A DNA stretch of 64,000 bases, taken from assembly GCA_963715635.1 (NCBI GenBank), contig OY970261.1, forward strand, positions 2,161,011-2,225,010, read 5' to 3'. Below are positions 21,532-40,152 of this stretch, one piece after another (positions within the stretch are counted from its first letter, which is position 1; each line of letters begins with the position of its first letter). The position numbers and the translations under genes are program-made. This stretch comes from Candidatus Aminicenantes bacterium. GTDB taxonomy: Bacteria; Acidobacteriota; Aminicenantia; Aminicenantales; UBA4085. The notes below the pieces were generated by a model, which saw only the letters and a list, made by a program, of their open reading frames with translations, was not told the origin of the DNA and made no database searches.

Positions 21532-21544
21532 AATGCCTCCGTTG

Positions 21545-21645
21545 AGAAAATATATTCTTTCAGACGTCTCTTTTAATGAGGCGATCAATCGCGAAAGCGT
21601 CGTATCGATCCGGGGGCCTTCGGGTCCCCACGCCTCAATTCTCAC
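21545..21645. promoter_or_regulatory. ~100-bp intergenic repeat copy B between the MTase and TPR genes
   Basis: Same sequence family as 19728-19827, including GCGATCAATCGC. Confidence 0.55.
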
Positions 21646-27177: not shown

Positions 27178-27299
27178 TTTGGACAAGGGATCGTTTTCGG
27201 CTGGCCGCCGCCTCTTCTCCTTTCTCTCTTAGCTCTTTTAGGGAAAGAATGGGAGGAGGAGGGAAGGGAAGAGAACACATACCTGGAAATATATATAAG

Positions 27300-27420
27300 G
27301 CATCCAAACAATGGAACTGTTGCGGACGCCAACTGTTCCAAACAATGGAACTGTTAGGCTTTAACTGTTCCAAACAATGGAACGAATCGTTCCAAACAAT
27401 GGAACTGTCTATGATTTCTC
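27300..27420. promoter_or_regulatory. Four direct copies of a 17-bp palindromic operator/iteron GTTCCAAACAATGGAAC
   Basis: Copies at about 27304, 27334, 27362 and 27385, each internally palindromic (GTTCCA..TGGAAC). Confidence 0.6.
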
Positions 27421-27864: not shown

Positions 27865-29310
27865 ATGAAGGGGCTTTCGGCACTCCTCACGGCCAGAGAG
27901 ACAAGCAAAGTCTTGGGCATAAGCCTCTCAACCGTTTATCGCCTGGCAGGGCAGAATTGTATTCCCCATATCAAGATGAACGGCCTGGGGCTACGCTTCC
28001 GAGAGGATGATCTCGACGCATGGCTGCAAGGGGGAACCTTTAAGCCCGCTAATCTTGACCCTTACTTGCTTGCTTCTCCCGCCTATGCTATACCTTCTCG
28101 GCATGGAGGTATAAACGGGATGGCCAGCAAGGCCAAATCAAAAACCCGCTTCAATCTAGACTATGGATCGGTTTATATTCGGAAAACCAAAGAGGGGAAA
28201 GAACGTTTTTGCATTGACTATTACAATGCCGATGGCCGCCGTGTCCAGAAGGTTGTGAAGTATGCCGAGAGTTGGGAGGAGGCTGCTGCCGCCTTAAAAG
28301 ATGCCGCCGTCAAGGAATACTGTTTCAAAAATGGGATTGAACCCAAGCCCCGGAATATCAGGTTCAAGGAATTCTCAAAGCTCTATTGGGAAACCCATGT
28401 CAAGGTGAACCGTCGAGGCTGGCAGTCTGAAACGGGCAGGATGGAGAACCTAAAGGCAACCTTCGGGGACATGGATTTGCGAGAGATTAGGCCGATGGAC
28501 GTTGAAAGGTTCAAGCACTCCCGTATTAAAGCCGGAAACAAAGAAAGCACGATCAACCGCTATCTCGCCCTACTCAAGCATATGTTTAATTTTGCTATCA
28601 GCAACGGCTATGCCTCAAAGAATCCGGTCAAGGAAATCAAGCTCTACGCGGAAAAGGAACGGAAGGAAAGAGTCCTGGGCCTGGAAGAAGAAGCCCGGCT
28701 ACTCAAGGTAAGTCCCGACTATCTAAGGCCCATGCTGATTACTGCCATTCATGCGGGCCTCCGGCGCTCGGAGATTATGAATCTCAAGTGGTCAAGCGTG
28801 GATCTGGAAGCCCGGAGAATCAGGGTAGAAGCCGAAAGCGCAAAAAGCGGGAAATTCCGATCCGTCCCCGTTAACTCCGCCCTCCATGCTGCCCTACTCG
28901 CTCAAAAGGCCGCAAACGGAAAGAGCCCGTATGTTTTCCCCAATGAGGACACAGGGAAGCCCTACACGACACTAGCAAGGGTTTTTATGCGGGCCTGTAA
29001 GGATGCAGAAATTAAGGGGCTCACGCTTCACGATTTGCGCCGCAGTTTTGCATCGAGGCTACTTGAGGAAGGTGCGTCCATTGAGATAGTCAAATCCTTG
29101 CTCGGCCATCACAGCATAACAGTTACCGAAAGATACACTCATTCCAGCGAAGAAGCCAAGAGAAGAGCGGTTGAACGGTTGGCCGAGAAGTCCATCAAAG
29201 AAGGCGAAAACAGGGATTCTCTGTTACGTGGTGGTGACCTGAAAGAGTCGTCTTTTTGGCCAGACTTCAATTCTCTGAAGGCGGTAACTCCATCATGCTC
29301 AATGAATTAA
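27865..29310 (+). CDS. int: Tyrosine-type site-specific integrase with N-terminal excisionase-like HTH domain (481 aa)
   Basis: N-terminal HTH (TARETSKVLGISLSTVYRLA). Catalytic motifs LRRSEIMNLKW (R), HDLRRSFAS (H-x-x-R), HHSITVTERYTH (Tyr). Stop lies 4 nt from the tRNA 3' end. Confidence 0.9.
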   Translation: MKGLSALLTARETSKVLGISLSTVYRLAGQNCIPHIKMNGLGLRFREDDLDAWLQGGTFKPANLDPYLLASPAYAIPSRHGGINGMASKAKSKTRFNLDYGSVYIRKTKEGKERFCIDYYNADGRRVQKVVKYAESWEEAAAALKDAAVKEYCFKNGIEPKPRNIRFKEFSKLYWETHVKVNRRGWQSETGRMENLKATFGDMDLREIRPMDVERFKHSRIKAGNKESTINRYLALLKHMFNFAISNGYASKNPVKEIKLYAEKERKERVLGLEEEARLLKVSPDYLRPMLITAIHAGLRRSEIMNLKWSSVDLEARRIRVEAESAKSGKFRSVPVNSALHAALLAQKAANGKSPYVFPNEDTGKPYTTLARVFMRACKDAEIKGLTLHDLRRSFASRLLEEGASIEIVKSLLGHHSITVTERYTHSSEEAKRRAVERLAEKSIKEGENRDSLLRGGDLKESSFWPDFNSLKAVTPSCSMN

Positions 29311-29313
29311 GAG

Positions 29314-29391
29314 ATGGCGCGCCTGGCCGGACTCGAACCAGCGACACAGGGATTAGGAATCCCTTGCTCTATCCAAACTGAGCTACAGGCG
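29314..29391 (-). tRNA. tRNA-Arg (anticodon CCT), complete with encoded CCA
   Basis: Cloverleaf resolved by eye: acceptor GCGCCTG/CAGGCGC, D-arm GCTC-AGTTTGGATA-GAGC, anticodon stem-loop AGGGA-TTCCTAA-TCCCT, T-arm GCTGG-TTCGAGT-CCGGC, discriminator G, CCA. Confidence 0.85.
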
Positions 29392-29424
29392 CGCAGGATC
29401 GAAAGAGATTATAAACCGCTGATT

Positions 29425-30582
29425 TCAATTTATCAAGCGGGGATCGACCGCTCCCTCCGGAAGAGCCCGGCCGGAGGCCCCCTGCAGAGCATTGACGTCT
29501 TTTTGACGTCCTCGTAACCACTCCCCCAGGGCCTCTAAAGCCGCCCGTTTATCGGAGTCCGTGGGGTGGACGTACCGCATAGTCATTTCAACAGAGCTAT
29601 GCCCAAGGATCCGGGAGGCCGTCATGACGTTGATAACCCTCACGAGCTGAGAGGCCGCGACGTGCCTCAGATCATGGAAGACGATTCCAACGTCTCGGCC
29701 GCGAGCGATCCCGGCTTCTTTACAGGCCACCGCGAACGGCTTCCGGATGCTCTTGATATGCGTCTTGCCGTTCGGGAAAACGTAATCGCTTCGGCGCTCG
29801 ATCCCCTGCAGGACGTCCAGGAGATCCCGGCCGAGCGGGATCGTCCGCTCTTTCTTGCTCTTCGAGTTCGTCACGGAAATTGTTAGGCGACGGGCCGGAA
29901 AAGAGATCTGGCTCCAGCGAAGGGAAAGAATCTCCGAAAGCCTCATCCCCGTTAGCAGCGCGATTTCGACGACCGGCCTTGTCCGCTCCGGCGTGGACGC
30001 GATGAGGCGCCGCATATCCTCATCAGTCAGGCCGAGCTCGAGGATTTTTTCTTCTCGGGAATTTTGCTCTTCCAGACGCTTGACGCCCTTCTGCCCTATC
30101 GGATTCAAGCCGATGAGTCCGTCACCTACGGCTGCGTTTAGGATGCTCACCAGCAGCGAGCGCTCGCGGTTGACGGAGGCCGGTTTGAGGCCGGATTTTA
30201 TTCTCTCCGTCATGTAATCCCGGACGACATTTGGCCGAATATCGACGAGGGCGACGGTTTTGAATTTTCGATTGAGGGCCTTGAGGGACGTCTCATCCCG
30301 GGCCGCTGAGCGTTTCTGCTTCCAGGTTGCTGAATCTAGGAGAGTCCTGGCGTACTCGCCGAATGTATCCGCCGATTTTGGGGGCCGGATTTTCTCAGCG
30401 AGTTTTCCCGCCCTAGCCGCAAGCCGGAGTTCAGCGAGAAATGTTTTCGCTTCTTCTTTCGTGTAGCCGGCGAATCGGCGGACCCGAACATAGTTCAACG
30501 TGACGTCAGTAAGGTAATAGCCGGGCTTGCCTTCGGAGCCCTTAATAAATTTCAGGTTGTTTTCTTCCTTGCGTTCTTTCAT
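29425..30582 (-). CDS. int: Tyrosine-type site-specific integrase (385 aa), integrase of the right-hand element
   Basis: ALLTGMRLSEILSLRW (R), HDLRHVAASQL (H-x-x-R), HSSVEMTMRYVH (Tyr). N-terminal SAM-like/AP2 region. Confidence 0.9.
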   Translation of the reverse strand: MKERKEENNLKFIKGSEGKPGYYLTDVTLNYVRVRRFAGYTKEEAKTFLAELRLAARAGKLAEKIRPPKSADTFGEYARTLLDSATWKQKRSAARDETSLKALNRKFKTVALVDIRPNVVRDYMTERIKSGLKPASVNRERSLLVSILNAAVGDGLIGLNPIGQKGVKRLEEQNSREEKILELGLTDEDMRRLIASTPERTRPVVEIALLTGMRLSEILSLRWSQISFPARRLTISVTNSKSKKERTIPLGRDLLDVLQGIERRSDYVFPNGKTHIKSIRKPFAVACKEAGIARGRDVGIVFHDLRHVAASQLVRVINVMTASRILGHSSVEMTMRYVHPTDSDKRAALEALGEWLRGRQKDVNALQGASGRALPEGAVDPRLIN

Positions 30583-30871
30583 GCGTCCCCCTTAGTGAAT
30601 TGAGACGGGCGCTCCCTGAAGCCGTTGTAAGGGAGCCAGCATGGAGAGGCTGGGGGCCCCAGGGAGCACACCGTTTAATTTCATTTCATCCCCCGTTTCT
30701 TATTCGATGCTACTCCAAAAGCCTCGATCTCCGCAAGTATCGAAGGCGGCAAATTTTCAACCGGGTCCAAGGTCTCTTTGACGAAGTATTTGCCGAGCGT
30801 CTCTGACCGTACGATCGTCAGGCCGGGGCGGATCTCGATTTCATTTTGAAGGTGCAGAAGATTCTCGATAT

Positions 30872-31189
30872 TCATTTTGCCGGCAGTATTCCCGCTCCGT
30901 CCGCTACAAGAAAAAGAAGATCGCGGATTTCTTTTTTAGATTTTTTGAGCGCGATACCTAGTCCGAGAGCGATCCCCACGAAGGTTTCTTTTCCATTATG
31001 TCTAACGCGCCAACTCCCTTTTCCCCCTTTCACAACTCCCATTTTTTCCGCATCAAACCCAAGTGCTTTACAAGCTTTAATAAATTTCAGGGCCTGGTCG
31101 TGTTCTGCCGCAATCCAGGCATCGACTTCTGGATGATTCCAGCACACCTCAAACTGTCCCTTAGAATTTCTCTTAGCATTTTTAATCAT
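30872..31189 (-). CDS. Hypothetical protein (105 aa)
   Basis: ORF in 4-nt overlap with the 30681-30875 ORF. Confidence 0.35.
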   Translation of the reverse strand: MIKNAKRNSKGQFEVCWNHPEVDAWIAAEHDQALKFIKACKALGFDAEKMGVVKGGKGSWRVRHNGKETFVGIALGLGIALKKSKKEIRDLLFLVADGAGILPAK

Positions 31190-31202
31190 GAAGATCTCCT
31201 TT

Positions 31203-31379
31203 TTATTTTTTCTTCAAAGGTTTCCCTTCGATGAAATTCTTGAGATCAATCTCCCGGATACGGACTAAGTGCCCGATCTTGAAACTTTTCAAGCGGCCGG
31301 AGCTGATAAGTCCGTAGGCCGTGGTCCGCGAGATCTTAAGAATCCCCATGACTTCTTCGACCGTCAGATATGTTTTCAT
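31203..31379 (-). CDS. AlpA/excisionase-family HTH DNA-binding protein (58 aa); absent from the ORF track because it is under 60 aa
   Basis: Translation MKTYLTVEEVMGILKISRTTAYGLISSGRLKSFKIGHLVRIREIDLKNFIEG matches HTH_17/AlpA architecture. Confidence 0.6.
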   Translation of the reverse strand: MKTYLTVEEVMGILKISRTTAYGLISSGRLKSFKIGHLVRIREIDLKNFIEGKPLKKK

Positions 31380-31473
31380 GCCTTTCTCTATCCTTTATAA
31401 GTATCTGTAAGTATCTACTAATATCATTAAATATCTGCTTTGTCAAGAAGAATTTTACATTGATCCATGGAAT

Positions 31474-31665
31474 TTGATATCCTCTGAGCCAATGGAAAAA
31501 GACCTAATGACAAAAAAGGAAGTCTTGGAATATCTCCGATTATCAAATCGAAGTCTTTATTTATTGATGAAAAGCCGTGCATTTCCTTACATCAAATTAA
31601 AGCGGCGTGTCCTCTTCCGAAAGCGTGATATCGATATTTTTCTGGAATCGAAGACGGTCAAATAA
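31474..31665 (+). CDS. AlpA/excisionase-family HTH DNA-binding protein (63 aa)
   Basis: MTKKEVLEYLRLSNRSLYLLMKSRAFPYIKLKRRVLFRKRDIDIFL is an HTH_17 pattern. Divergent from 31203-31379. Confidence 0.55.
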   Translation: MISSEPMEKDLMTKKEVLEYLRLSNRSLYLLMKSRAFPYIKLKRRVLFRKRDIDIFLESKTVK

Positions 31666-31783
31666 CTATGCCTCTATCCTGGTCCCTCTCCAACTCGATC
31701 TCCATGGATAAAAGGCCGTCCCCACTGCACCGGGGGAATCGGCCCGGACCCCAAAGGCAGGCAGGCAGGGACGGCCGCGTTTT

Positions 31784-32308
31784 TCATTCCTGGTCCTTGT
31801 AATGATTTGGGGTCAAATCGTTCGCGTCTTTTTTATCTGCAAGCCGCCGAAAGGATTTTTTGATTTCGTCATTCTCTCGCTCAATCGCCTCTTTTTCTTT
31901 TTCAACAGCCTTGGCTTCTTTCTCTGTCTTCTCAGCCTGTTCCCTGGCGTTTTTTTCGATCCATTCACCCAAGGTCAATCCGACTTGCTCATGCTGGCCA
32001 TCGGATACTTTCTCGGTCGGCGTTTGAGTTTTGGCCGTGGCCAATTTAAGATCGTCCTCTTCGTCTTCGCCTTTTTTCTCTCGCGCCCAATCTGGCACTA
32101 GTCCGCTCGGGTCGGGTTTAAGGTCGGGATCGTCCGGCTTGTCTTTGAGGTCGTCCGGGCATAGCAGCCGATCTAATTCTTTTTGAGTTTTCACCGGGTC
32201 CGGCTTGGTCAACTTCGGGACATTTGTCCTGAGGTCCGCGCCATCGTCTTTCATATTTTCCGGGTCAAGCAGGTCCGAAACCTCTTTTGATATTTTCGAC
32301 GTGGTCAT
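31784..32308 (-). CDS. Highly charged/acidic low-complexity protein (174 aa), possibly scaffold-like
   Basis: ORF rich in D/E/K with predicted coiled-coil. Confidence 0.35.
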   Translation of the reverse strand: MTTSKISKEVSDLLDPENMKDDGADLRTNVPKLTKPDPVKTQKELDRLLCPDDLKDKPDDPDLKPDPSGLVPDWAREKKGEDEEDDLKLATAKTQTPTEKVSDGQHEQVGLTLGEWIEKNAREQAEKTEKEAKAVEKEKEAIERENDEIKKSFRRLADKKDANDLTPNHYKDQE

Positions 32309-33177
32309 TTCTTACCTTCCCCGCCCTTTTTCGTCATCACCGACGTTGTTGTCAAAGACGCGCCGCTCGGAAGTTCCAGGCGATAGTAAAGCTCATACTT
32401 ACCCTGACCTGTTTGATAACCGCTTGCCAGGGTCAAGTGAACGCGGGTATCGTCCTTAAATTGAACCTCAGCGATGATCTTTTCCAGCTCGGGCAAAAAT
32501 TTCTCATGCAGCCGGGGGTCAAGCCGGACGTCGCGTAAGGATTGCGCGTCGAGATTCTCCCACACCATCCCGTATATAAAATTCCCGGTACATAATTGGA
32601 CGTCGTTTGTCGCCCGCTCCCTATCAGCGTCCGCGCCGGCGTAGCCTTCATAGACGGCCCCGATTCCATGCTCTAGAGTTTCAATTTCGCTCTTGAGTTT
32701 TTGAATTTGCGTCGCCGCCGGATAGCTCATCGCGTATCTCAACTCAACCCGCGCCTGCGCTTCCTCTTTTTCAAGCTGGATAATTTCGGCCCTAAGTGAT
32801 CGAATGATCCGAGCCGCCCCCGCGAGTTTTTCCTGCGTCTCAATCCTTGCGCTCTTTTCTCGCTCCCCCGCGGCCATCATTTCAGCGAGTCCGGCTTGCC
32901 CGTCTTTCACCTGTTCGCCGATCGTCACCGCGTCCACATCGGCCGCCCGCGCCTTCGCCATGAGCCGATCTTCGAGCGCGTGATACTCGCTCACGGCCTG
33001 GGTATAGGCCGCCCGCTTTTTCGTGAGTTTATCCTGGGCGTCGGCCTGGGCCTTTTCATAGCCCTTCCGTTTCCCGTCCATTTCGCGGTCTAACCGCTCG
33101 CACTCTTTTTTGATTTCTTTTTCGCGTTCCTTGAATTGCTCAAGGATGGTCTGTGTCATGGTCATTTTTTCCTCCAA
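32305..33177 (-). CDS. Coiled-coil protein (290 aa), hypothetical
   Basis: Long heptad-like N-terminal region. 4-nt overlap with the downstream gene. Confidence 0.45.
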   Translation of the reverse strand: MEEKMTMTQTILEQFKEREKEIKKECERLDREMDGKRKGYEKAQADAQDKLTKKRAAYTQAVSEYHALEDRLMAKARAADVDAVTIGEQVKDGQAGLAEMMAAGEREKSARIETQEKLAGAARIIRSLRAEIIQLEKEEAQARVELRYAMSYPAATQIQKLKSEIETLEHGIGAVYEGYAGADADRERATNDVQLCTGNFIYGMVWENLDAQSLRDVRLDPRLHEKFLPELEKIIAEVQFKDDTRVHLTLASGYQTGQGKYELYYRLELPSGASLTTTSVMTKKGGEGKK

Positions 33178-33280
33178 ATAGAATTTTTATCGAATAGGTC
33201 AAAAAACGGCCTCGTAGTTTGACCTGTGCAGGCTTTTAATCTTTTGGTCCATACCAAGGTAGCCGTCATTTGCGTCCTCA

Positions 33281-33583
33281 TTAATCCATATCGCCGGAAT
33301 CGTCATCGATGATGATGACCTTTGGCGATCCTTCGCGTTTTCGCCGTTCCATGTAATCTGGATAGGGTTTCTTCGTCTTCGGGTCCAAGTCGGATGTTGT
33401 AAGAAAACTCAGCGGCTTGCCGGGAGGAGCGAATTTAAATCTCGGTCCAAATAACCTCTTCGTTAATCTGGCAAGCGCAGAAAGTTCACCCGGAGCGGTT
33501 TTGCCATCGTGCGCAACCGTCATCCCGACCGTTTGGACAGGTCGGCCCGTCACCTTGCTGAGTACCTGTAGAAAAATGTTCAT
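33281..33583 (-). CDS. Hypothetical protein (100 aa)
   Basis: ORF in 4-nt overlap with the terminase gene. Confidence 0.35.
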   Translation of the reverse strand: MNIFLQVLSKVTGRPVQTVGMTVAHDGKTAPGELSALARLTKRLFGPRFKFAPPGKPLSFLTTSDLDPKTKKPYPDYMERRKREGSPKVIIIDDDSGDMD

Positions 33584-35133
33584 TTCTTCCTCCCGGTTTG
33601 AATGTCATTCGTTGTAATAACGCGGCTCATTTTCCGGGACTCCGGTTTCAACCGAATGACTTCCAGGTGATCAAACTGCGAATCGCCGCCACCAAAATTG
33701 TAATACTGGCCGTGGCCGTCATAAAAGTCACGCTCGATGAATCCGATATAACCCTTGCCGCTTTCGGATCTCGCGGCCAGAACACAAGCGCCGGCGGCAG
33801 AGTTCGCCAGGTCGTCATGCCCGCCCGCGTAGTGCGTTATCAAATCCTTCCCCCCGCTCCGGGCCCGCCGCTCAAGGCCCGTGAGCTGAGCGAGAAGGCG
33901 CTTATTATCCAATAATTCAACAGTTCCATTCGAGATTAAGGGAAGAAAATTCAAATAGAGTTCGCTTGCCGTCAACTCCGAGTTCTTGACCTCAATCTCA
34001 TGTGTCCGAAAAGCTTCGGCAACCCATTCCGCCGCGTATTTGTCGGATTCCACGCTCGAGATATTGAACGATTTCAGGACGTTGGCGAATTCGGCGACAA
34101 CGCCCTGGGGCTGGAATGGCGGCCTTCGCTCCCGGAGAACGTCCAAGACGATTTTTCCCGAGCCCTCCCGGTGACAGATCCCCATTGTAAAAGCGTCTTG
34201 CCTTCCGCCGCTCGGATCGATGAATCCAAAGTAATCCGCGCCGTCGATTTTCGGCAATTCATGCCGGCTTGGGATCATGACGGCCTCGACAAGCTCCGCT
34301 GTGATAAAGGCTTCAATGTCCTCTCGCCACTCCGATTCCCACTCGCTCCGGGCCGCTTGCGGATCTTCCTTCAGCGCATTGTCGATCACCCGGCCGTCGA
34401 TCATCGGGTTCATCGTCTTCGTCGCCGCCTTCCAAATTAATGGACCTCCGGGCTTGCCGAAGTTCGCCTTGTATTGCTCCCATAAAACGCCGGTCCGGCT
34501 GTATGGCGTGCTGATTCCCAAAAGCAAACTTTCTGGAATCGTCGCCAGGGCGGGCCGAATCGCAGCCAGGATCTCCTTGTCCGGATTTGCAGAATCCTCC
34601 GAGCGGTAAAAGGCCAGCTCCTCCAAGATCGCTGTTAGGATCGTGTAGCCCCGGACGCTCCGAAAACTGGCCGTCTTCACGCCGATGCTGATCCCATTCC
34701 GGAGATCGATCGTTTCCTGCGTCTCTCTCTCAATCATCCCCTTTAGGCATTTCACCCCATGAAAGATTCCGGAGATATATGCCTTGATAATCCCGGCCTG
34801 GGCTTTATCGACGGCGATGATAAAGACCCAACCTTTTTCCCCCGGGCTCAGGTATGCCGTCCAATCCTTGAAACAGGCCAAGAAGACAGCGATCAGCGCC
34901 GACGTGTAGGACTTCCCGCTCCGCCTTCCGGCAATAACAAAACTCTCCCGGACCTTCTCCCCAGGCGTGTACTCAAAGCCTGTGCAGTCCTTGAATAAGG
35001 CCAGATCCTCAGCGCCCTCAATCGGCAATCCGAAGAGGCCGCGAAGATAGACTTCCCATGCGTGCCATGTCGAAGGATTCTTGAACAGCGGCCGAAAAAT
35101 ATCCTTTCTGTACCAAGCGTCAATGACGTTCAC
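33580..35133 (-). CDS. terL: Phage terminase large subunit-like protein (517 aa)
   Basis: Walker A AGRRSGKSYTSAL, Walker B-like ILEELAF, C-terminal nuclease-like IDPSGGRQD...GGHDDLANS. Confidence 0.7.
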   Translation of the reverse strand: MNVIDAWYRKDIFRPLFKNPSTWHAWEVYLRGLFGLPIEGAEDLALFKDCTGFEYTPGEKVRESFVIAGRRSGKSYTSALIAVFLACFKDWTAYLSPGEKGWVFIIAVDKAQAGIIKAYISGIFHGVKCLKGMIERETQETIDLRNGISIGVKTASFRSVRGYTILTAILEELAFYRSEDSANPDKEILAAIRPALATIPESLLLGISTPYSRTGVLWEQYKANFGKPGGPLIWKAATKTMNPMIDGRVIDNALKEDPQAARSEWESEWREDIEAFITAELVEAVMIPSRHELPKIDGADYFGFIDPSGGRQDAFTMGICHREGSGKIVLDVLRERRPPFQPQGVVAEFANVLKSFNISSVESDKYAAEWVAEAFRTHEIEVKNSELTASELYLNFLPLISNGTVELLDNKRLLAQLTGLERRARSGGKDLITHYAGGHDDLANSAAGACVLAARSESGKGYIGFIERDFYDGHGQYYNFGGGDSQFDHLEVIRLKPESRKMSRVITTNDIQTGRKK

Positions 35134-35366
35134 GGCTTGCCCTCCAGCGATTCATCCGCCTTCGTGAGTGCCTGGATGAGCGCGGGCAAAAGCTCAGCGT
35201 GAAGCGTGAGGCCCTTTTGCGTAGCCCTCCATTGACCGTCATCGCACTCGATCCAGGTCCTGATATCGACATAGACCTTGCCTTTAAATGTCTGAAGATG
35301 AATCCTCACGCTCCGCCCGCTGCCGTTCTCAATGCTCTCAATTAAAGTCTGCTTTGTCTCGCTCAT
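35130..35366 (-). CDS. Hypothetical small protein (78 aa)
   Basis: ORF coupled between the terminase genes. Confidence 0.35.
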   Translation of the reverse strand: MSETKQTLIESIENGSGRSVRIHLQTFKGKVYVDIRTWIECDDGQWRATQKGLTLHAELLPALIQALTKADESLEGKP

Positions 35367-35929
35367 GACTTCACCTCTTCCGGCTTCTGAATTTGTGACG
35401 ACGTTGCCCCAGGATCGATTTTGATAGGCTCCGCGTCCGCGTGGCCATCCTCCCCCTTGTTCTTATCCTGCCTGCCAAGCTGGTCAGGCTGGGCCTGTTT
35501 GTCTGCTTTCTCCGCGTCTATCTCAGCCGCTATCTCAAGCGGAGACAGGACCCGCTCCCCGACACGCTTCGAGATCCCCAGGGCTTCGAGGTCCCTTCGT
35601 ATGCTCTCACAATAGGTGATATAGGACTTCGCCATGACGGGGTTCAATTCGCCTCCCTTAAACACGCCCACTTTCTTAATGTACTCTTCTATGCAACGGA
35701 CAGCACTCAGCTTCGAAATGGCCCGGTCAACGAGTACCAGTTGAGCCGTGGTCAGATCCGCCTCACGTGGCCCCAAGTCTTCGATCAATCCATCCCGGGC
35801 GGCTTGAAGATACACCCTCAAATCTGTTCGCCGCTGTACCATGAGAGAGTAAGCGCCATGTTTGACTTTGACGCCGGGCTTCCGGCCAGGCCGCTTTTTC
35901 TCTTTCTTTTGAGGCTGATTCTCTGTCAT
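35363..35929 (-). CDS. Possible terminase small subunit (P27-like), 188 aa
   Basis: N-terminal KRPGRKPGVKVKHG resembles the P27-family 'GRKPKP' start. Located immediately upstream of terL. Confidence 0.35.
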   Translation of the reverse strand: MTENQPQKKEKKRPGRKPGVKVKHGAYSLMVQRRTDLRVYLQAARDGLIEDLGPREADLTTAQLVLVDRAISKLSAVRCIEEYIKKVGVFKGGELNPVMAKSYITYCESIRRDLEALGISKRVGERVLSPLEIAAEIDAEKADKQAQPDQLGRQDKNKGEDGHADAEPIKIDPGATSSQIQKPEEVKS

Positions 35930-36099
35930 TTATAACCTATTGAATATAATTGAATTGCGTTTTTTGGCATTTATCAAACACGTCAATAATCACGTCAATT
36001 TTCCTTCGCATATGGGGAAAAACATGGAGTACCAGTCCAGCGCTCTCCCGCCGATCCCGAAAGGATAAAGACGACGCGGGAACGGCTTTGCTTTGCCGC

Positions 36100-36262
36100 C
36101 TTTCGTCCAATAGTCTCCATTCGTCTCAGACTGTGTATATTGAGATTATTGGTATTATTGAGATTATTGAGACTATTGAAGACCTTCCCAATAGTCCCAA
36201 TAGTCTCAAAAGTCTCATTAATCTCATGAGTCTCATATAGGGATGGCGTGAGATTATTGACG
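36100..36262. repeat. Iteron cluster, candidate replication origin downstream of the rep helicase gene
   Basis: Tandem GAGATTATTG/ATTGAGACTATTG repeats followed by CAATAGTC(C/T)C and AGTCTCA repeats. AT-rich. Confidence 0.55.
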
Positions 36263-36263
36263 T

Positions 36264-37652
36264 TCACTTCGGCAACTCCCAACTTGAAGTCTTGAATTGT
36301 CCGTAGCCTGAAACTCGGGAGATAACGCCGATTTTCTTCCGGACGCGGAAAAGGCAGGGCCGACTGATTGATTCTTTTTTTGCGGCTTGGAGCAAGTTTT
36401 GCAGTTCAACCGGACCTCCTTTGAGTTGGCCTATCAGCCATTCGGCGGCGAAATCCCCTTCGGCGGCTTGGCCTGGATCTCGCCGTTGAAGGATCTCATC
36501 CGCGCCGATGTTAATGATATTTGGTTCGAATTCGACCCGCCCCCCGTCTCCTATGGTAAAGGCGATTGTTCCCGGCATTTTGGCATAGTTGCATTTCGCC
36601 GGAGCCAAGAGTCGCCGCTCCGGATTATCAGGATCGATTCCCAAGGCCAAGACGGATCGAGGGGTCGCGCCGTATGCAACCGATCCCCCGATACGATTTA
36701 GCGCGCCGGACTCATCGGTTCGTTTATTCAAATGGCAGATACCAAGGACCGCCGCTCCCGTCTTTTCAGCTATGGCCGCAAGCGGACGGAGCAGAGCGCG
36801 TCTCACGTCGGGATCCCGGAAATAATCCGTCCCTGCTTTCAGGAACGCGTTCAAGGGATCGACGACGACAAATTTGATTCGCGGATTCTGCGTGAGGGCC
36901 TGTTGTAAGGGACCGAAGATTTCCCCGACATCAAGGTCTTCGGCTTCTATAAAGAAGATTCGGGCAAGATCCGCGCCGTTTACTTCGGCTCGCGGTCTGA
37001 CCGCTTGAGCGATCGGGTCTTCGGCCGCAAGAATGATCGAATCACAATCCAGGACAGCTCCGGTTGAATCCGGGAGCGGTTCACCCCGGCTCAATCTTGC
37101 CGTGATTGCATGGGCAAGCGTTGATTTCCCTCCCCCGGCGCTCCCGGCTAAAAGCGACAGCATCCCGAGCGGGATCCGGCCTGACCAAAGCCAAGAAATG
37201 GCTTTCGATTCAACGGCGGACAAGGGTTTGAGGCTCGTAACGGGATTCTCGAATTCGTCGATCTCGCGGACGAGTTCCCGGATCCGCCCGAGCGCCTTTT
37301 CGTCTTGGGTCCCTGTCTTCAGCTCGGTCCGCTTTTCTTGATCGAGGAGCTTTATCAACTCTCCATTCTTCCTGGCCCGGAGGAGCCCGTTGACCTTGAG
37401 CTGGAACGCCGCGGAGGATAAGCGATAGCAGCCTTCTTGCTCGGCGAATAACGAGGCCAAGGATAAACCACAACGCGCCGATAGTTTCCCGTCGTCAATT
37501 TCGCCGTGTTCCTCTTCCCAGAGATCGGAAATGGCCACGGCTATTTTCCGACGCGGCCCAGTGAACAAGTCCAGGGAATAACGCGGGGTATCTTGGAGTT
37601 GGGGAGAAACCTTTGCGCTGAAGAGAATTTCCCTTTCGTCGCTGACACTCAT
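36264..37652 (-). CDS. RepA/AAA_25-type replicative ATPase-helicase (RecA-fold), 462 aa
   Basis: Walker A LLAGSAGGGKSTLA, Walker B FVVVDPLNAF. N-terminal primase-associated region. Confidence 0.65.
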   Translation of the reverse strand: MSVSDEREILFSAKVSPQLQDTPRYSLDLFTGPRRKIAVAISDLWEEEHGEIDDGKLSARCGLSLASLFAEQEGCYRLSSAAFQLKVNGLLRARKNGELIKLLDQEKRTELKTGTQDEKALGRIRELVREIDEFENPVTSLKPLSAVESKAISWLWSGRIPLGMLSLLAGSAGGGKSTLAHAITARLSRGEPLPDSTGAVLDCDSIILAAEDPIAQAVRPRAEVNGADLARIFFIEAEDLDVGEIFGPLQQALTQNPRIKFVVVDPLNAFLKAGTDYFRDPDVRRALLRPLAAIAEKTGAAVLGICHLNKRTDESGALNRIGGSVAYGATPRSVLALGIDPDNPERRLLAPAKCNYAKMPGTIAFTIGDGGRVEFEPNIINIGADEILQRRDPGQAAEGDFAAEWLIGQLKGGPVELQNLLQAAKKESISRPCLFRVRKKIGVISRVSGYGQFKTSSWELPK

Positions 37653-37852
37653 TTCGCCCGTCCTTTTCCATGCCCGGATAGCACCGTCCCCGCTTCGATC
37701 GCCGCTATATTGAGCCGGATCTGCCGTCCGATTTTCAGAACGGATCCTTCCGGCAGCCGGCCTCTGGCCGCGAGAGAATATAGGGTCTTCGGCGATTTCA
37801 TGCCGAAATATTCAGCGGCAACGGGGATCGAGTACCAACGGCGGGGTTCCAT
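37649..37852 (-). CDS. AlpA/excisionase-family HTH protein (67 aa)
   Basis: WYSIPVAAEYFGMKSPKTLYSLAARGRLP...KIGRQIRLN. Confidence 0.5.
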   Translation of the reverse strand: MEPRRWYSIPVAAEYFGMKSPKTLYSLAARGRLPEGSVLKIGRQIRLNIAAIEAGTVLSGHGKGRAK

Positions 37853-37857
37853 GGGTT

Positions 37858-38163
37858 TTATTTTATTCTCGGTTGCGCGACTTGTTTTTTCGCTTTTTCG
37901 AGGAATACATCCTGCGGCTCATTTCCGACCATTTCAGCCGGGAAAATATCTTCAACATCACATTTAAAAAATTGGGCGAGCTTTTCTTTGGTTTTCTGCG
38001 TGGTCCTCGATTCAAAACCCGCTTCTAGATACCAGAGGCAAGCGATCGAGATACCAGCACCGACGGCGACCTGGGCTTGCGTCAGACCTTGGCTTTCCCG
38101 GAGCGATCGCAATTTATTCCACCCTATGAAAGCCGGCGCTGGGTCCCATTTTATTTTTCTCAT
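37858..38163 (-). CDS. XRE-family HTH regulator (101 aa)
   Basis: LRESQGLTQAQVAVGAGISIACLWYLEAG. Confidence 0.6.
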   Translation of the reverse strand: MRKIKWDPAPAFIGWNKLRSLRESQGLTQAQVAVGAGISIACLWYLEAGFESRTTQKTKEKLAQFFKCDVEDIFPAEMVGNEPQDVFLEKAKKQVAQPRIK

Positions 38164-38259
38164 CTCATATCTCCTATATTCCTTGACATTAGATTATTTC
38201 AGTATTAATATAAGACTTATAATGACAGGCGTCAAAGGTCACAATAACAGGTTAAGGAC

Positions 38260-39117
38260 ATGAATAAAGCTACGACAATAAGGCGGGATAAAGAAAGCCG
38301 GAAAATATCTATTTCGACAGAGCCGGATATTCTTTCCGATGATCGGATTAAATTTATCATCGAAAATATGACACGTCGAAATGCGCGAATACTTAAAGAT
38401 TTTCAGAAAGGTCGGTCGCATCCGCCCTTTTGTGTCTGTTGGCTTTGCTTATGGAGGAAGTACGAAAAAGTACGGCTCTCCGGCCACCCCTATGATTACA
38501 CAACCTTTCTCGCCTATGATATCATGGAAGAGGTTTTCGGCCCTTTCCAATATGAGCCTATTAAGAAAATTCCAATCAAAATGCTCGCAAGGGAAGTTAT
38601 TCAGCGCCTGCCGATCATCCATCCCGACACAAAGAAAATACTGAATAGGTTCACTAGGGATCTGTTCCGAGACCGTTTCATTGAGTATTCAAGAAAGAAA
38701 AGATATCAATCGGATAGCCTGCAAAATCTTATAGAACAACTTATGTATCAGATTCACCGCGAGGGGGGAAGATATGTACCAGCGCAGGAATTTGGCCCGA
38801 AGGCCATCCGCGGATTGAGGCCATCTGGGCCGAAGGCCATCCACATTTTAAGGCCATCAACGCGCGCACTTCTGCCCTCGAAGATTGCCCAATATATTTA
38901 CTCGCAGCCCGACCACAAGGCCACACAACGCGAGCTACAGCGCCTTACGAATAAGCGTAAGGCCGATCTCGAAGAGACTCATGAATGGCTTAAATGGCGA
39001 TACGGGATAATAACCCCGCCACATAAGAAATGGGAATCGACTATCTATATAGGGACAGAGCCAAAATTCCCTAGAAAACCGCCAGGGAGGCGGCTCGGAC
39101 GGCCCCGTCCTTTATAG
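38260..39117 (+). CDS. Hypothetical protein (285 aa) with internal GPKAIRGLRPS/GPKAIHILRPS duplication
   Basis: ORF. A ~30-bp DNA direct repeat at 38796-38860 encodes the duplicated peptide. Confidence 0.45.
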   Translation: MNKATTIRRDKESRKISISTEPDILSDDRIKFIIENMTRRNARILKDFQKGRSHPPFCVCWLCLWRKYEKVRLSGHPYDYTTFLAYDIMEEVFGPFQYEPIKKIPIKMLAREVIQRLPIIHPDTKKILNRFTRDLFRDRFIEYSRKKRYQSDSLQNLIEQLMYQIHREGGRYVPAQEFGPKAIRGLRPSGPKAIHILRPSTRALLPSKIAQYIYSQPDHKATQRELQRLTNKRKADLEETHEWLKWRYGIITPPHKKWESTIYIGTEPKFPRKPPGRRLGRPRPL

Positions 39118-39242
39118 ACGTGTCCAAAAATTGTACAAAATAATTGACGGGATTATTGGTGTCTTGAGCGATAAAAATCTCCTTGACAGAGTGGCCGAGC
39201 AATATTATCATTATGGAGGGTGAAAATATGGAAGCAGTCGAG

Positions 39243-39824
39243 TTAGATGCCTTGGCGTTGGAATACCAGGGAAATTACGGGAATGCCATCGGGGATTTGA
39301 ACCTCTCGGATTTCGTGAATAATCCCTTTCTCAACTGCGAAATTGGCATCCTTTGTTTGGGCTTGAAGAAAAAGGCCTGCGACTTCATCTTCGGTAAGTT
39401 TGGTATGCCGGGAAATGACCGCTCCGATTCTCTTCTGGTTGCTAAGAACCCCGTCTAATCTTTCCCGTAAATCCTTCTCCTCAAATCTCTGCCCTTGATT
39501 CGCATTGAATCCGACACCGTGGAACATGAATGTTGCAGTAGATGTAGCATAACGTTTCTTTCCAGCTAAGAATATAACATTTCCGATGGAATCCACGTTG
39601 CTGACATTATGCATTATCAATTCAAAAGGCATTCCCTTTAAGACGTTGTATAGATTCATCCCCTCCATTACCATGCCGCCCGGAGTGGAAAGTAACAAGG
39701 CAACTTTTTGAACTTTCAAGTTGGCGCAATTGCTCATAACGGCAATAAGACTCTCGATCGTTTTTAAGCTGATTTCCGCCGAAAAAGAAATATAAACAAG
39801 GGGTGCACCTACAGGTATTTCCAT
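39243..39824 (-). CDS. ClpP/S14-S49 family serine protease-like protein (193 aa), possibly a prohead protease
   Basis: LLLSTPGGMVMEGMNLYNVL parallels the ClpP 'INSPGG' oxyanion-hole region. Confidence 0.5.
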   Translation of the reverse strand: MEIPVGAPLVYISFSAEISLKTIESLIAVMSNCANLKVQKVALLLSTPGGMVMEGMNLYNVLKGMPFELIMHNVSNVDSIGNVIFLAGKKRYATSTATFMFHGVGFNANQGQRFEEKDLRERLDGVLSNQKRIGAVISRHTKLTEDEVAGLFLQAQTKDANFAVEKGIIHEIREVQIPDGIPVISLVFQRQGI

Positions 39825-40003
39825 TGCTAAAAACTCCTTACCGGAGCTATTTATAATTATGGCATTATAGTTTAGGATGTCAATAGAATATTTTTGAAAA
39901 ATTGACGGGATTTTTGACGTCCTTGAACGGGAATACCTAAGAATATTAGAGAATGCCTAAGACACTTTCTCGGGGAAAAACGATTTTCCAGGGAGGCTTT
40001 TAA

Positions 40004-40046
40004 GGATTAGGAATCCCTTGCTCTATCCATACTGAGCTACAGGCGC
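40004..40046 (-). pseudogene. Displaced 5' half of tRNA-Arg(CCT), positions 1-43 (acceptor through anticodon loop); right-hand attachment-site repeat
   Basis: rc = GCGCCTGTAGCTCAGTATGGATAGAGCAAGGGATTCCTAATCC, 42/43 identical to 29349-29391. Followed by non-tRNA sequence. Confidence 0.7.
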
Positions 40047-40152
40047 ACCCTGCGCTGATCGCGGATTCAATATAGCGGATTGCCTCTGATTTTGCAATCA
40101 GGTTAGACACAACTTGCGAGATCGCGCCGCTTCTCTTGGGTCGAGGCTTTTC

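What the first reader, a model, noticed from the sequence alone, without database searches (positions are those of the whole stretch)
29392..40003. Right-hand element resembles a phage satellite (PICI-like): int, AlpA HTHs, XRE, rep helicase plus downstream iteron ori, terS/terL and a ClpP-like protease, with no capsid or tail genes
Gene content from 29425 to 39824: tyrosine integrase, a divergent pair of AlpA/excisionase-family genes (one of 58 aa at 31203-31379, absent from the ORF track), a coiled-coil/acidic pair that could be scaffold-like, terminase large subunit and putative small subunit, a RepA/AAA_25 helicase with an iteron cluster immediately 3' (36100-36262), a further AlpA plus XRE pair, and a ClpP-fold protease. 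There are no portal, major capsid or tail genes in 10.6 kb. That pattern fits helper-dependent satellites rather than a prophage.
Basis: partly seen in the sequence, partly recalled or inferred. Interest (0 to 1): 0.6.

Follow-up and report, generated by a model that had tools for sequence, protein, structure and literature searches.

The report
Terminase-carrying, capsid-less phage satellite candidate
A 10.6-kb mobile element sits in a tRNA-Arg gene of an Aminicenantes-type bacterium and carries its own integrase, replication origin and DNA-packaging enzyme but no capsid, portal or tail genes, so it most likely travels in the particles of a helper phage; it belongs to a large family that I did not find described.

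Summary
Window 29393-40003 is a discrete 10,611-bp insertion flanked by a 43-nt direct repeat. Related metagenome contigs carry the same host flank joined directly to an intact tRNA-Arg(CCT), so the boundaries are exact.

Confirmed genes:
- intact tyrosine integrase
- three HTH_17 (excisionase-type) genes
- an XRE regulator
- an AAA_25 RepA helicase followed by two blocks of 9-bp iterons
- a large terminase (TerL)
- a ClpP-fold protease

AlphaFold models show that the two largest unknown proteins are a coiled-coil hairpin and a winged-helix regulator. Neither is a capsid or portal protein.

The element belongs to a family of 8-13-kb tRNA-integrating elements, mostly in Aminicenantes/Acidobacteriota. 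The family shares a conserved small gene (TerS by position only) directly upstream of a highly conserved TerL. Some relatives add an HK97 capsid gene or a tape-measure-like gene. None shows a recognisable portal.

The best reading is a helper-dependent satellite that packages itself with its own terminase. It is not a PICI or cfPICI by their defining gene sets. Helper dependence is inferred, not shown.

Unusually, the element replaces the 5' half of the tRNA and supplies a new promoter for it.

The parts
40069..40097 (-). Original host promoter of the tRNA (TTGCAA-17-TATATT). It now drives only the displaced 5' fragment.
   Evidence: Promoter scan. The same sequence lies directly upstream of the intact tRNA in the empty sites L061-L065.
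40004..40046 (-). Displaced host 5' half of tRNA-Arg(CCT); distal att repeat.
   Evidence: 43-nt direct repeat of 29350-29392 with 1 mismatch. Its D-loop base T (40030) matches 6 of 7 empty sites.
39243..39824 (-). ClpP-fold serine protease, closest to phage head-maturation proteases. Accessory gene of this copy, with its own promoter-like site at 39856-39883.
   Evidence: PF00574 1.2e-15. PHROG 94 head maturation protease 4.7e-13. NCBIfam Clp_rel_HeadMat 1.9e-12, below its cut-off. About 32% identity to an annotated coliphage head maturation protease. No homologue in related loci. Promoter-like site.
38260..39117 (+). 285-aa regulator candidate: helical N-domain with a conserved H-x4-C-x-C-x2-C motif plus a C-terminal winged helix. 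Transcribed divergently from the XRE operon.
   Evidence: 16 homologues. AF2 model pLDDT 72. Foldseek matches to ArsR/MarR winged helices over about 65 residues, probability 0.99 but weak E-values. No family hit.
38164..38259 (.). 96-bp switch region with overlapping divergent promoter-like sites: 38183-38211 (+) and 38235-38207 (-).
   Evidence: Promoter scan: TTGACA-17-TAATAT and TTGACG-17-TATATT.
37858..38163 (-). XRE/Cro-type HTH regulator, first gene of the replication operon.
   Evidence: HTH_3/HTH_31, about 3e-7. 71% identical in L058.
37649..37852 (-). HTH_17 (excisionase/MerR-type) protein directly upstream of RepA.
   Evidence: PF12728 1.7e-8. The same position is occupied in L002, L055 and L058.
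36264..37652 (-). RepA-type replicative helicase (AAA_25, RecA/DnaB-like). No primase domain detected.
   Evidence: PF13481 1.2e-24. Homologues in L002, L009, L048 and L058 at 33-43% identity.
36100..36262 (.). Candidate replication origin: two blocks of 9-bp iterons, TATTGAGAT x4.7 at 36138-36179 and the inverted core AGTCTCA in a period-9 array at 36186-36240.
   Evidence: TRF and motif clustering. The same two-block 9-bp arrangement lies just 3' of repA in L058 with the same motif (3011-3088) and in L002 with a different motif (8034-8117).
35363..35929 (-). 188-aa candidate small terminase subunit, assigned by position only: conserved helical core of about 140 aa plus a variable acidic tail.
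   Evidence: An HMM built from 25 homologues finds it upstream of TerL, adjacent or within about 3 kb, in 32 related loci. No match to Pfam, PHROGs, PDB or S-CBS4 gp011.
35130..35366 (-). PC4-like (ssDNA-binding fold) 78-aa protein in the variable slot between TerS and TerL.
   Evidence: PF02229 8.5e-14. In relatives the slot holds RusA (L058), a tape-measure-like protein (L056, L028) or an unknown protein (L002).
33580..35133 (-). Large terminase subunit (ATPase plus nuclease); the most conserved gene of the family.
   Evidence: PHROG 2 3.5e-23 and PHROG 9 1.1e-13. More than 3,400 homologues, the top 120 at 60-86% identity. Walker A GRRSGKS, EE171-172, D306, D364 and DD440-441 are invariant. 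tblastn to S-CBS4 terL 4e-17.
33281..33583 (-). 100-aa protein overlapping the TerL stop codon, function unknown. A small ORF follows TerL in most relatives.
   Evidence: ORF list. 42% identical in L042. Gene tables of L002 and L055-L058. No family or PDB hit.
32305..33177 (-). 290-aa coiled-coil hairpin protein with a small C-terminal alpha/beta domain. Not a capsid or portal protein; function unknown (a capsid-assembly modifier is speculation).
   Evidence: AF2 pLDDT 82, helices 11-91 and 97-197. Only generic coiled-coil Foldseek matches. Conserved after TerL in L002, L028, L031, L033, L036, L042, L055, L056 and L058.
31784..32308 (-). 174-aa acidic, low-complexity protein. Partner of the coiled-coil gene by position.
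   Evidence: Translation. No family hits. Weak homologues in L056 and L058.
31203..31665 (.). Divergent pair of HTH_17 genes, 31203-31379(-) and 31474-31665(+). Candidate excisionase/regulator pair.
   Evidence: PF12728 2.3e-14 and 3.6e-10. The same divergent pair occurs in L002, L035, L038 and L044, and the gene tables of L055 and L058 show it too.
30681..31189 (-). Two small ORFs (105 aa and 64 aa) of unknown function between the HTH pair and int.
   Evidence: ORF list. No hits.
29425..30582 (-). Tyrosine integrase, intact, co-oriented with the tRNA and immediately upstream of it.
   Evidence: PF00589 4.8e-31. 51-53% identical to the L055 and L058 integrases, which are also followed by a full tRNA or its 5' half.
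29408..29436 (-). Element-borne promoter (TTGATA-17-TATAAT), overlapping the integrase gene's 3' end and stop codon; its -10 hexamer ends 15 nt upstream of the tRNA 5' end.
   Evidence: Promoter scan, 11 of 12 matches. Sequence read.
29315..29392 (-). Functional hybrid tRNA-Arg(CCT): the 5' half (29350-29392) comes from the element and the 3' half from the host.
   Evidence: ARAGORN, repeats, and a D-loop base A here against T in the displaced fragment and in 6 of 7 empty sites.

Best explanation
This is an integrated, probably active member of a family of small (about 8-13 kb) helper-dependent phage satellites of Aminicenantes/Acidobacteriota that I did not find described.

Shown:
- It is a precise 10,611-bp insertion in the anticodon-loop region of tRNA-Arg(CCT).
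- It carries the 5' half of the tRNA and its own promoter, so the gene is rebuilt from element sequence.
- It encodes an intact tyrosine integrase, excisionase-type HTH proteins, a divergent regulator pair, a RepA helicase with an adjacent two-block iteron array, and a TerL with intact ATPase and nuclease motifs.
- It has no recognisable capsid, portal, tail or lysis gene.

Inferred life cycle:
1. The winged-helix protein (38260-39117) and the XRE protein form a switch that keeps the element silent until a helper phage infects or is induced.
2. Int plus an HTH_17 excisionase then excise a 10.6-kb circle.
3. RepA replicates it from the iteron origin.
4. The conserved 188-aa protein acts as a small terminase. 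It recognises a site on the element and recruits the element's own TerL, which cuts the DNA and pumps it into procapsids made by the helper, docking on the helper's portal.
5. The coiled-coil/acidic pair, and in this copy the ClpP-like protease, may alter helper capsid assembly. This last step is speculative.
For: 1. Discrete mobile insertion. There is a 43-nt direct repeat equal to the tRNA 5' half. Empty sites in L061, L062, L063 and L065 join the same MscS flank and host promoter directly to an intact tRNA. In L063 the flank aligns over 9.1 kb at 81% identity.

2. Compact conserved architecture, not decay. The order regulators / RepA / TerS-like / variable slot / TerL / small ORF / coiled-coil / HTH pair / int recurs in L002 (10.6 kb), L028, L038, L042, L055, L056 and L058. 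Intact att repeats were mapped where both ends are present.

3. The TerS-like gene lies upstream of TerL, adjacent or within about 3 kb, in 32 related loci.

4. TerL is under strong constraint. It is 73% identical between the window and L002, against 24-47% for RepA, int, TerS-like and the coiled-coil protein. Its catalytic motifs are invariant.

5. No structural genes. Pfam, PHROGs, NCBIfam and PADLOC are all negative. AF2 models of the two largest unknowns are a coiled-coil hairpin and a winged-helix protein. No other ORF is large enough to be a portal.

6. Link to virions. Relatives L003 and L004 carry an HK97 capsid gene next to TerL (3.5e-45; 3e-37). L056 and L028 carry a tape-measure-like gene. 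This copy has a head-protease-like ClpP. A scatter of single morphogenesis genes of this kind is typical of satellites.

7. L004 is a circular 8.1-kb contig from the viral collection.

8. The origin is supported by comparison. Two blocks of 9-bp iterons sit just 3' of repA in the window, L058 and L002.
Against: - No helper phage was identified.
- There is no evidence of induction, excision or encapsidation for this element or a close relative.
- The TerS assignment rests on position alone.
- TerL has no Pfam hit for this sequence and no PDB match even with a profile.
- A satellite that brings its own TerL but no portal would need that TerL to fit a foreign portal. I did not find this arrangement in the satellite papers I read.
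- No capsid-size-redirecting function could be assigned.
- Small unknown ORFs (64-105 aa) could be divergent head-tail adaptors that the searches missed.
Confidence: 0.6

Rival explanations
1. It is an integrative, self-replicating island (plasmid-like or tycheposon-like) that is not packaged. The TerS-like/TerL pair serves another purpose, for example cutting or mis-packaging the DNA of an infecting phage as a defence, or resolving replication concatemers.
For: Int, RepA and the iteron origin suffice for an excise-and-replicate life style. The tRNA is surrounded by cargo and defence islands. No helper or packaging site is known. The slot next to TerL holds DNA-metabolism genes, PC4 and RusA.
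Against: TerL keeps both its ATPase and nuclease motifs and always travels with the same small partner, as in packaging enzymes. Relatives carry capsid or tape-measure genes beside it. PADLOC finds no defence-system match for any gene tested. No transfer route other than capsids is encoded: neither Pfam nor PHROGs reports a relaxase or secretion gene.
Confidence: 0.17
2. It is a decayed prophage remnant that has lost its structural genes.
For: It carries TerL, a head-protease-like gene and phage-type regulators. TerL relatives at 40-43% identity sit in 60-84-kb viral contigs.
Against: Both att repeats are intact, with one mismatch. The integrase is intact. The same 8-13-kb layout recurs in many genomes and at different tRNAs. 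TerL is 60-86% conserved with invariant catalytic residues. There are no pseudogene debris or large non-coding gaps.
Confidence: 0.06
3. It is a minimal autonomous virus whose capsid and portal proteins are too divergent to recognise.
For: Several ORFs remain without any assignment: 64, 100, 105 and 174 aa, plus the 290-aa coiled-coil protein. L004 is a circular 8.1-kb contig with TerL and a capsid gene.
Against: 10.6 kb with about 17 genes leaves no room for a portal, capsid, tail and lysis set. The two largest unknowns were modelled and are not capsid-like or portal-like. Where a capsid gene exists in relatives it is easily recognised.
Confidence: 0.04

Closest known systems
PICI (phage-inducible chromosomal islands, e.g. 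SaPIs and EcCICFT073), as modelled in SatelliteFinder (PMC10085698)
   Same: Size is about 10 kb. It has an integrase at one end, excisionase/AlpA-type and Cro/repressor-type regulators in a divergent arrangement, a replication protein with an iteron origin just 3' of it (my recollection of SaPI biology), a small-terminase-position gene, and no portal, tail or lysis genes.
   Different: It carries a full TerL, which PICIs do not. The replication protein is an AAA_25 helicase with no detectable primase. No recognisable capsid-morphogenesis gene is present. The host is an Aminicenantes-type bacterium rather than Proteobacteria or Firmicutes. It integrates by replacing the 5' half of a tRNA.
cfPICI (capsid-forming PICIs; PMC10085698)
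   Same: It encodes its own TerL together with a TerS-position gene and, in this copy, a prohead-protease-like ClpP. Some relatives (L003, L004) also encode an HK97 capsid protein.
   Different: [quoted passage not shown] It is 10.6 kb against a median of 14 kb. It could not build its own heads.
PICI-like tycheposons of Prochlorococcus (10.1101/2020.12.28.424599) and marine VEIMEs (PMC9618062)
   Same: These are small tRNA-targeting elements with a tyrosine recombinase and a replication module. They carry a single packaging gene (terS or MCP), occur as tandem arrays separated by partial tRNAs, and build up islands next to the tRNA.
   Different: In the passages I read, those elements are reported with terS or MCP, not TerL. 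The relationship of the integrases was not tested. The host phylum and habitat differ.
tRNA-gene islands with a displaced 5' fragment (Islander database, PMC4383910)
   Same: The configuration is a full tDNA, a 5' fragment upstream in the same orientation, and an integrase in between, with an anticodon-centred crossover.
   Different: This is the minority class: 159 islands against 3,760 with a 3' fragment. Here the element also supplies a near-consensus promoter for the rebuilt tRNA, and the same tRNA carries a tandem array of 3'-type islands on its other side.

Membership tests
PICI (SatelliteFinder definition, PMC10085698) | Integrase | tested here: met
   PF00589 4.8e-31, intact.
PICI (SatelliteFinder definition, PMC10085698) | Regulation module homologous to alpA, merR or stl | tested here: inconclusive
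   Three HTH_17 (MerR-superfamily excisionase-type) genes, an XRE and a winged-helix protein are present. Pfam Phage_AlpA did not hit, and the SatelliteFinder profiles were not available.
PICI (SatelliteFinder definition, PMC10085698) | Primase-replicase module | tested here: inconclusive
   An AAA_25 helicase with an adjacent iteron origin is present. No primase domain was detected.
PICI (SatelliteFinder definition, PMC10085698) | Capsid-morphogenesis gene | tested here: not met
   No hit in Pfam, PHROGs or NCBIfam. The coiled-coil protein has only generic structural matches.
PICI (SatelliteFinder definition, PMC10085698) | Small terminase (terS) homologue | tested here: inconclusive
   A conserved 188-aa gene sits directly upstream of TerL. 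It has no similarity to any TerS family, PDB TerS or S-CBS4 gp011.
PICI (SatelliteFinder definition, PMC10085698) | Induction and packaging by a helper phage | not testable with these tools
   This needs an experiment or virome reads from the host.
cfPICI (PMC10085698) | Large terminase (terL) | tested here: met
   PHROG 2 3.5e-23; motifs invariant.
cfPICI (PMC10085698) | Major capsid protein | tested here: not met
   None detected in the window element. It is present only in the relatives L003 and L004.
cfPICI (PMC10085698) | Portal protein | tested here: not met
   No hit. The ORFs of 285 aa or more are int, TerL, RepA, the coiled-coil protein and the winged-helix protein.
cfPICI (PMC10085698) | [quoted passage not shown] | tested here: not met
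   No Pfam, PHROG or PDB match for the 64-, 100- and 105-aa ORFs. Their structures were not modelled, so divergent versions cannot be excluded.
P4-like satellites (PMC10085698) | Psu-Delta-Sid operon and P4-type primase | tested here: not met
   No PHROG or Pfam hit of that kind in any ORF.
tRNA-integrating genomic island, 5'-fragment class (PMC4383910) | Full tDNA plus a co-oriented 5' fragment upstream, with an integrase between them | tested here: met
   Empty sites confirm the junctions.
Phage large terminase (TerL) | N-terminal Walker A/B ATPase and C-terminal RNase-H-like nuclease with conserved acidic residues | tested here: met
   GRRSGKS, EE171-172, D306, D364 and DD440-441 are invariant in 25 sequences. 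The PHROG match spans residues 61-451. A weak PDB match falls on a TerL nuclease domain, E 0.07.
PICI-like tycheposon (10.1101/2020.12.28.424599) | Membership of the tycheposon tyrosine-recombinase clade and its hallmark gene set | not tested
   No tycheposon sequences were available for a phylogeny. Only the tRNA-proximal tandem-island behaviour is shared.

The most novel reading that the evidence does not exclude
This would be a widespread, undescribed class of phage satellites in Aminicenantes/Acidobacteriota whose hallmark is a complete private terminase (a novel TerS-like protein plus a highly conserved TerL) with no head genes. Such elements would hijack helper procapsids at the level of the packaging motor and portal, rather than through TerS alone or by building their own capsids. 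They would exchange single morphogenesis genes (HK97 capsid, tape-measure-like, ClpP protease) and DNA-metabolism genes (PC4, RusA) through a variable slot beside TerL. One integrase subclade of the family replaces the 5' half and the promoter of its target tRNA.
Probability: 0.5. Interest if true: 0.7.

Novelty: new variant of a known kind. Interest (0 to 1): 0.6.

Why it matters
Phage satellites are known mainly from Proteobacteria, Firmicutes and a few marine groups. The described classes carry either a small terminase only or a whole head module.

A family that carries TerS-like plus TerL but no head genes, with thousands of TerL homologues mostly from uncultured Aminicenantes, would fill the gap between PICIs and cfPICIs. 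It would show a different point of attack on the helper, namely the packaging motor docking on a foreign portal. It would also give a handle on phage-host biology in a phylum with no cultured phages.

The strong conservation of TerL makes it a simple marker for finding these elements and, through portal compatibility, their helpers.

The 5'-half tRNA replacement with a promoter brought in by the element is a clear example of how an island can take over expression of its target gene.

Tried and rejected
- **TerS assignment.** I searched an HMM of 25 homologues against PDB sequences and every member against PHROGs and Pfam. I also ran hhalign against the positional TerS of phage S-CBS4. All were negative, so TerS stays positional.
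- **TerL against PDB.** A single sequence gave only E 0.07 to TerL nuclease domains. The 25-sequence profile gave nothing at 0.01.
- **Coiled-coil protein.** Foldseek against PDB and against viral models gave only generic coiled coils: Vipp1, SMC, chemoreceptors and tape-measure segments. No scaffold or Sid-like match emerged, so the scaffold idea is left as speculation.
- **285-aa protein as capsid.** Rejected. It is all-helical with a winged helix.
- **Defence-system reading.** PADLOC gave only weak coiled-coil noise, JetC/LmuB-like at 1e-3 to 1e-5.
- **Circular forms.** Of 27 complete contigs tested for terminal overlaps, only L004 (114 nt) looks circular. The 18-nt overlap in L058 is the repeated tRNA 5' half, not circularity.
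- **Larger phage contigs with related TerL.** L006, at 43% identity, shows SbcCD, HNH and an ATPase around TerL. It has no TerS-like homologue and gives no helper clue.
- **Larger 5'-type relative.** L050 (16.9 kb) showed no capsid hit among the seven ORFs tested.
- **Left-hand islands of the window.** They carry no TerL or TerS and look like cargo islands.
- **Literature.** Searches found no description of a TerL-bearing, head-less satellite family or of Aminicenantes satellites.
- **Not tried.** The excised attP junction could not be searched for, because the single metagenome scan went to the empty site.

Full report
**1. What is there**

ARAGORN finds one tRNA in the window: tRNA-Arg(CCT) at 29315-29392 on the minus strand. 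Its 5' 43 nucleotides (29350-29392) are repeated at 40004-40046 with one mismatch.

Read on the minus strand, from the displaced tRNA fragment at 40004-40046 towards the tRNA, the region holds these genes:

| Coordinates | Feature | Main evidence |
|---|---|---|
| 39243-39824 | ClpP-fold protease | PF00574, 1.2e-15 |
| 38260-39117 (+ strand) | 285-aa unknown | no family hit |
| 37858-38163 | XRE regulator | Pfam HTH_3/HTH_31 |
| 37649-37852 | HTH_17 protein | PF12728 |
| 36264-37652 | AAA_25 RepA helicase | 1.2e-24 |
| ~36100-36262 | repeat-rich spacer | TRF, motif clustering |
| 35363-35929 | 188-aa unknown | no family hit |
| 35130-35366 | PC4-like protein | 8.5e-14 |
| 33580-35133 | 517-aa protein matching PHROG 2 'terminase large subunit' | 3.5e-23 |
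| 33281-33583 | 100-aa ORF | none |
| 32305-33177 | 290-aa protein | none |
| 31784-32308 | acidic 174-aa protein | none |
| 31203-31379(-), 31474-31665(+) | divergent pair of HTH_17 genes | PF12728 |
| 30681-31189 | two small ORFs | none |
| 29425-30582 | tyrosine integrase | 4.8e-31 |

The integrase shows the catalytic R, K, HxxR, H and Y in its translation. PADLOC finds no defence system.

**2. It is a precise insertion that replaces the 5' half of the tRNA**

I searched public metagenome contigs for the sequence an unoccupied site would have: the tRNA 3' half, then its 5' half, then the host flank. This gave seven matches.

- In L061, L062, L063 and L065 the MscS-type channel gene that lies right of the element in the window (40153-41481) is followed by the same promoter region and then directly by an intact tRNA.
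- In L063 the flank aligns over 9.1 kb at 81% identity. The 101 nt next to the tRNA align at 98%.

So the element's ends are exactly at 29393 and 40003.

The single mismatch in the repeat is informative. The displaced fragment has T at 40030, as do 6 of the 7 empty sites. The working tRNA has A at 29376. The 5' half of the working tRNA therefore came in with the element, and the crossover lay on the anticodon side of that base.

The 5' repeat overlaps by 16 nt (29350-29365, the anticodon stem-loop) with the 49-nt 3' repeat used by the islands on the other side of the tRNA.

Because the host promoter (TTGCAA-17-TATATT, 40097-40069) is now 10.6 kb away, the tRNA must be expressed from the element. 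A near-consensus TTGATA-17-TATAAT site lies at 29436-29408, overlapping the integrase gene's 3' end and stop codon, with its -10 hexamer ending 15 nt upstream of the tRNA's first base.

Islands with a displaced 5' fragment are a known minority: 159 against 3,760 in the Islander survey (PMC4383910).

**3. Are any of the unknown genes capsid, portal or tail genes?**

- **The 290-aa protein.** It has 10 close homologues. It was modelled with mean pLDDT 82. The model shows two helices of about 80 and 100 residues folded back as a hairpin, plus a small alpha/beta domain. Foldseek against PDB and against viral models returns only generic coiled coils.
- **The 285-aa protein.** It has 15 homologues, with a conserved H-x4-C-x-C-x2-C motif. 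It models as a helical domain plus a C-terminal winged helix. The winged helix superposes on ArsR/MarR-type repressors, with probability 0.99 over about 65 residues but weak E-values.

Neither protein has an HK97, portal or jelly-roll fold.

The remaining unassigned ORFs are 64-188 aa and have no Pfam, PHROG, NCBIfam or PDB match. No ORF other than int, RepA and TerL exceeds 290 aa. Capsid, portal and tail genes are therefore not detected. The caveat is that the small ORFs were not modelled.

**4. The terminase**

The 517-aa protein has no Pfam hit of its own. These results support its assignment as TerL:

- It matches two PHROG TerL families over residues 58-451.
- It matches annotated TerL genes of cultured phages at 22-24% identity, for example Synechococcus phage S-CBS4 at 4e-17.
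- It has more than 3,400 homologues. The best 120 are 60-86% identical, and some of them carry precomputed PF03354 hits.
- In an alignment of 25 homologues, the Walker A motif GRRSGKS, an EE pair at 171-172, and D306, D364 and DD440-441 are invariant. This fits an active ATPase-nuclease.

The 188-aa gene upstream is the weak point. An HMM built from 25 homologues finds it upstream of TerL, adjacent or within about 3 kb, in 32 related loci. It has no detectable similarity to any TerS family, to solved TerS structures, or to the positional TerS of S-CBS4. Calling it a small terminase is an inference from position, size and co-inheritance.

**5. The family**

TerL relatives were fetched from viral, genomic and metagenomic collections. 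Most genomic hits are MAGs labelled Aminicenantes/Aminicenantales or Acidobacteriota. The window's own protein sits on a 4.28-Mb contig.

The layout recurs. It runs: regulators, HTH_17, RepA, TerS-like, a variable gene, TerL, a small ORF, the coiled-coil protein, an acidic protein, a divergent HTH_17 pair, int.

- **L058 is the closest relative.** Identities to the window are: 285-aa protein 61%, XRE 71%, RepA 43%, TerL 60%, coiled-coil 51%, int 53%.
- **Element sizes are 7.7-12.9 kb for the 3'-type relatives** where both att repeats are in the locus (L002, L028, L029, L038, L042, L046, L003). These sit at tRNA-Arg, -Thr and -Leu genes. Two more distant 5'-type relatives at tRNA-Lys (L049, L050) are 13.8 and 16.9 kb.
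- **TerL is much the most conserved gene.** Between the window and L002 it is 73% identical, against TerS-like 47%, RepA 33%, int 32% and coiled-coil 24%.
- **The slot between TerS-like and TerL varies.** It holds PC4 in the window, RusA in L058, and a 787-839-aa tape-measure-like protein in L028, L056 and L057 (PHROG 8462 at 1e-33).
- **Two more distant members carry a clear HK97 capsid gene right after TerL.** L003 is integrated at tRNA-Arg(CCT). L004 has a 114-nt terminal overlap and so appears circular at 8.1 kb. Neither has a recognisable portal.
- **The ClpP-like gene of the window has no homologue in any related locus**. It is an accessory of this copy.

Integrases 51-53% identical to the window's (L055, L058) are likewise followed by a full tRNA or its 5' half. 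Those at about 30-35% identity are followed by a 3' fragment. This suggests an integrase subclade specialised for the 5' side.

**6. Replication origin**

TRF finds two period-9 arrays at 36138-36179 (TATTGAGAT) and 36186-36240, the second containing the inverted core AGTCTCA. Seven of the 36 window-wide near-matches to ATTGAGAYT lie within 110 nt there. The window-wide count itself is what chance predicts.

Comparison gives the stronger argument. L058 has the same two blocks, with the same motif, just 3' of its repA (3011-3088). L002 has two period-9 blocks of different sequence in the same place (8034-8117). A RepA gene followed by its iterons is the arrangement I recall from SaPI origins.

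**7. Regulation**

The 285-aa winged-helix gene and the XRE-HTH_17-RepA operon diverge from a 96-bp spacer. The spacer holds overlapping promoter-like sites on both strands: 38183-38211 (+) and 38235-38207 (-). This is the layout of a lysogeny-type switch.

That the winged-helix protein is the master repressor released by a helper phage is inference only.

**8. Interpretation**

Several observations point to a satellite that depends on a helper phage for heads and tails but brings its own packaging enzyme:

- small and uniform size
- intact integration machinery
- autonomous replication
- a private and strongly constrained terminase
- absence of head, portal, tail and lysis genes
- sporadic single morphogenesis genes in relatives

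The element does not meet the PICI definition. It has a TerL, no recognisable capsid-morphogenesis gene, and an unrecognisable TerS. It fails the cfPICI definition on capsid, portal and head-tail genes (PMC10085698).

PICI-like tycheposons and marine VEIMEs are the nearest ecological analogues. In the passages I read they are reported with terS or MCP, not TerL (10.1101/2020.12.28.424599; PMC9618062). Literature searches found no description of this family.

**9. Limits**

- No helper, no packaging site and no evidence of excision or encapsidation was obtained.
- The roles of the TerS-like, coiled-coil, acidic, PC4 and ClpP proteins are inferred or unknown.
- The small ORFs were not modelled.
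- The alternative that TerL serves interference or concatemer resolution, rather than self-packaging, cannot be excluded.

Noticed in passing
window 2061-2109, 3536-3584, 6833-6881, 14208-14256 and 29317-29365: The 3' half of the same tRNA-Arg(CCT) is repeated four times to the left of the gene. Each copy carries about 100-190 nt of conserved flank. This marks a tandem array of 3'-type islands. The 14208 copy is only 84% identical, with a different T-stem, as if it was brought in from another host. The tRNA is therefore occupied on both sides.
   Followed up: partly
window 4103-6625, 8647-9789, 10571-11293, 13253-14011, 19825-21645, 21642-23258: The cargo of the left-hand islands is a Ser/Thr kinase with TPR repeats, an NHL-repeat protein, a stretch of roughly 100-nt imperfect direct repeats, DUF6602, a 606-aa TPR protein with eight 102-nt repeats, and a DNA methylase fused to an Mrr-type nuclease. 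There are no terminase genes.
   Followed up: partly
window 27865-29310 and 27297-27405: The left-hand integrase is a 481-aa fusion of an HTH_17 domain to a tyrosine recombinase. Four copies of a 21-nt repeat (AACTGTTCCAAACAATGGAAC) lie about 500 nt upstream and may be arm sites or iterons.
   Followed up: no
L033 9315-21405: In a complete Aminicenantes chromosome, a tRNA-Arg(TCG) at 15434-15507 has a TerS-like/TerL element on each side. The upstream one ends with int next to the tRNA. The downstream one carries a PC4-like gene 51% identical to the window's.
   Followed up: no
L004 (whole contig, 8231 nt): This is a circular 8.1-kb contig from the viral collection, with a 114-nt terminal overlap. 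It carries TerS-like, TerL, an HK97 capsid protein, a ParB-like protein and an excisionase-type HTH. No integrase or portal was detected.
   Followed up: partly
L056 3539-6058, L057 3-2225, L028 7636-9999: A 740-839-aa tape-measure-like protein (PHROG 8462 at 1e-33 for the L056 protein) sits between TerS-like and TerL in elements whose TerL is 80-84% identical to the window's. A tail-length or ejection protein in a 10-11-kb element is unexplained.
   Followed up: no
L046 4542-6450: A 41-nt copy of the 5' half of tRNA-Arg(TCG) lies 1.8 kb upstream of the gene. A 3'-type TerL element lies downstream. This looks like a remnant of a 5'-type insertion at another tRNA.
   Followed up: no
window 38790-38855: A 33-nt tandem duplication inside the 285-aa gene encodes GPKAIRGLRPS / GPKAIHILRPS. 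It lies in the low-confidence linker between the helical domain and the winged helix, and most homologues lack it.
   Followed up: no
window 39243-39824: The best solved-structure match of the ClpP-like protein is a 183-residue 'Clp protease', 9uxt (4.5e-14). This is far better than its match to cellular ClpP (about 1e-5). I could not find out what 9uxt is.
   Followed up: no
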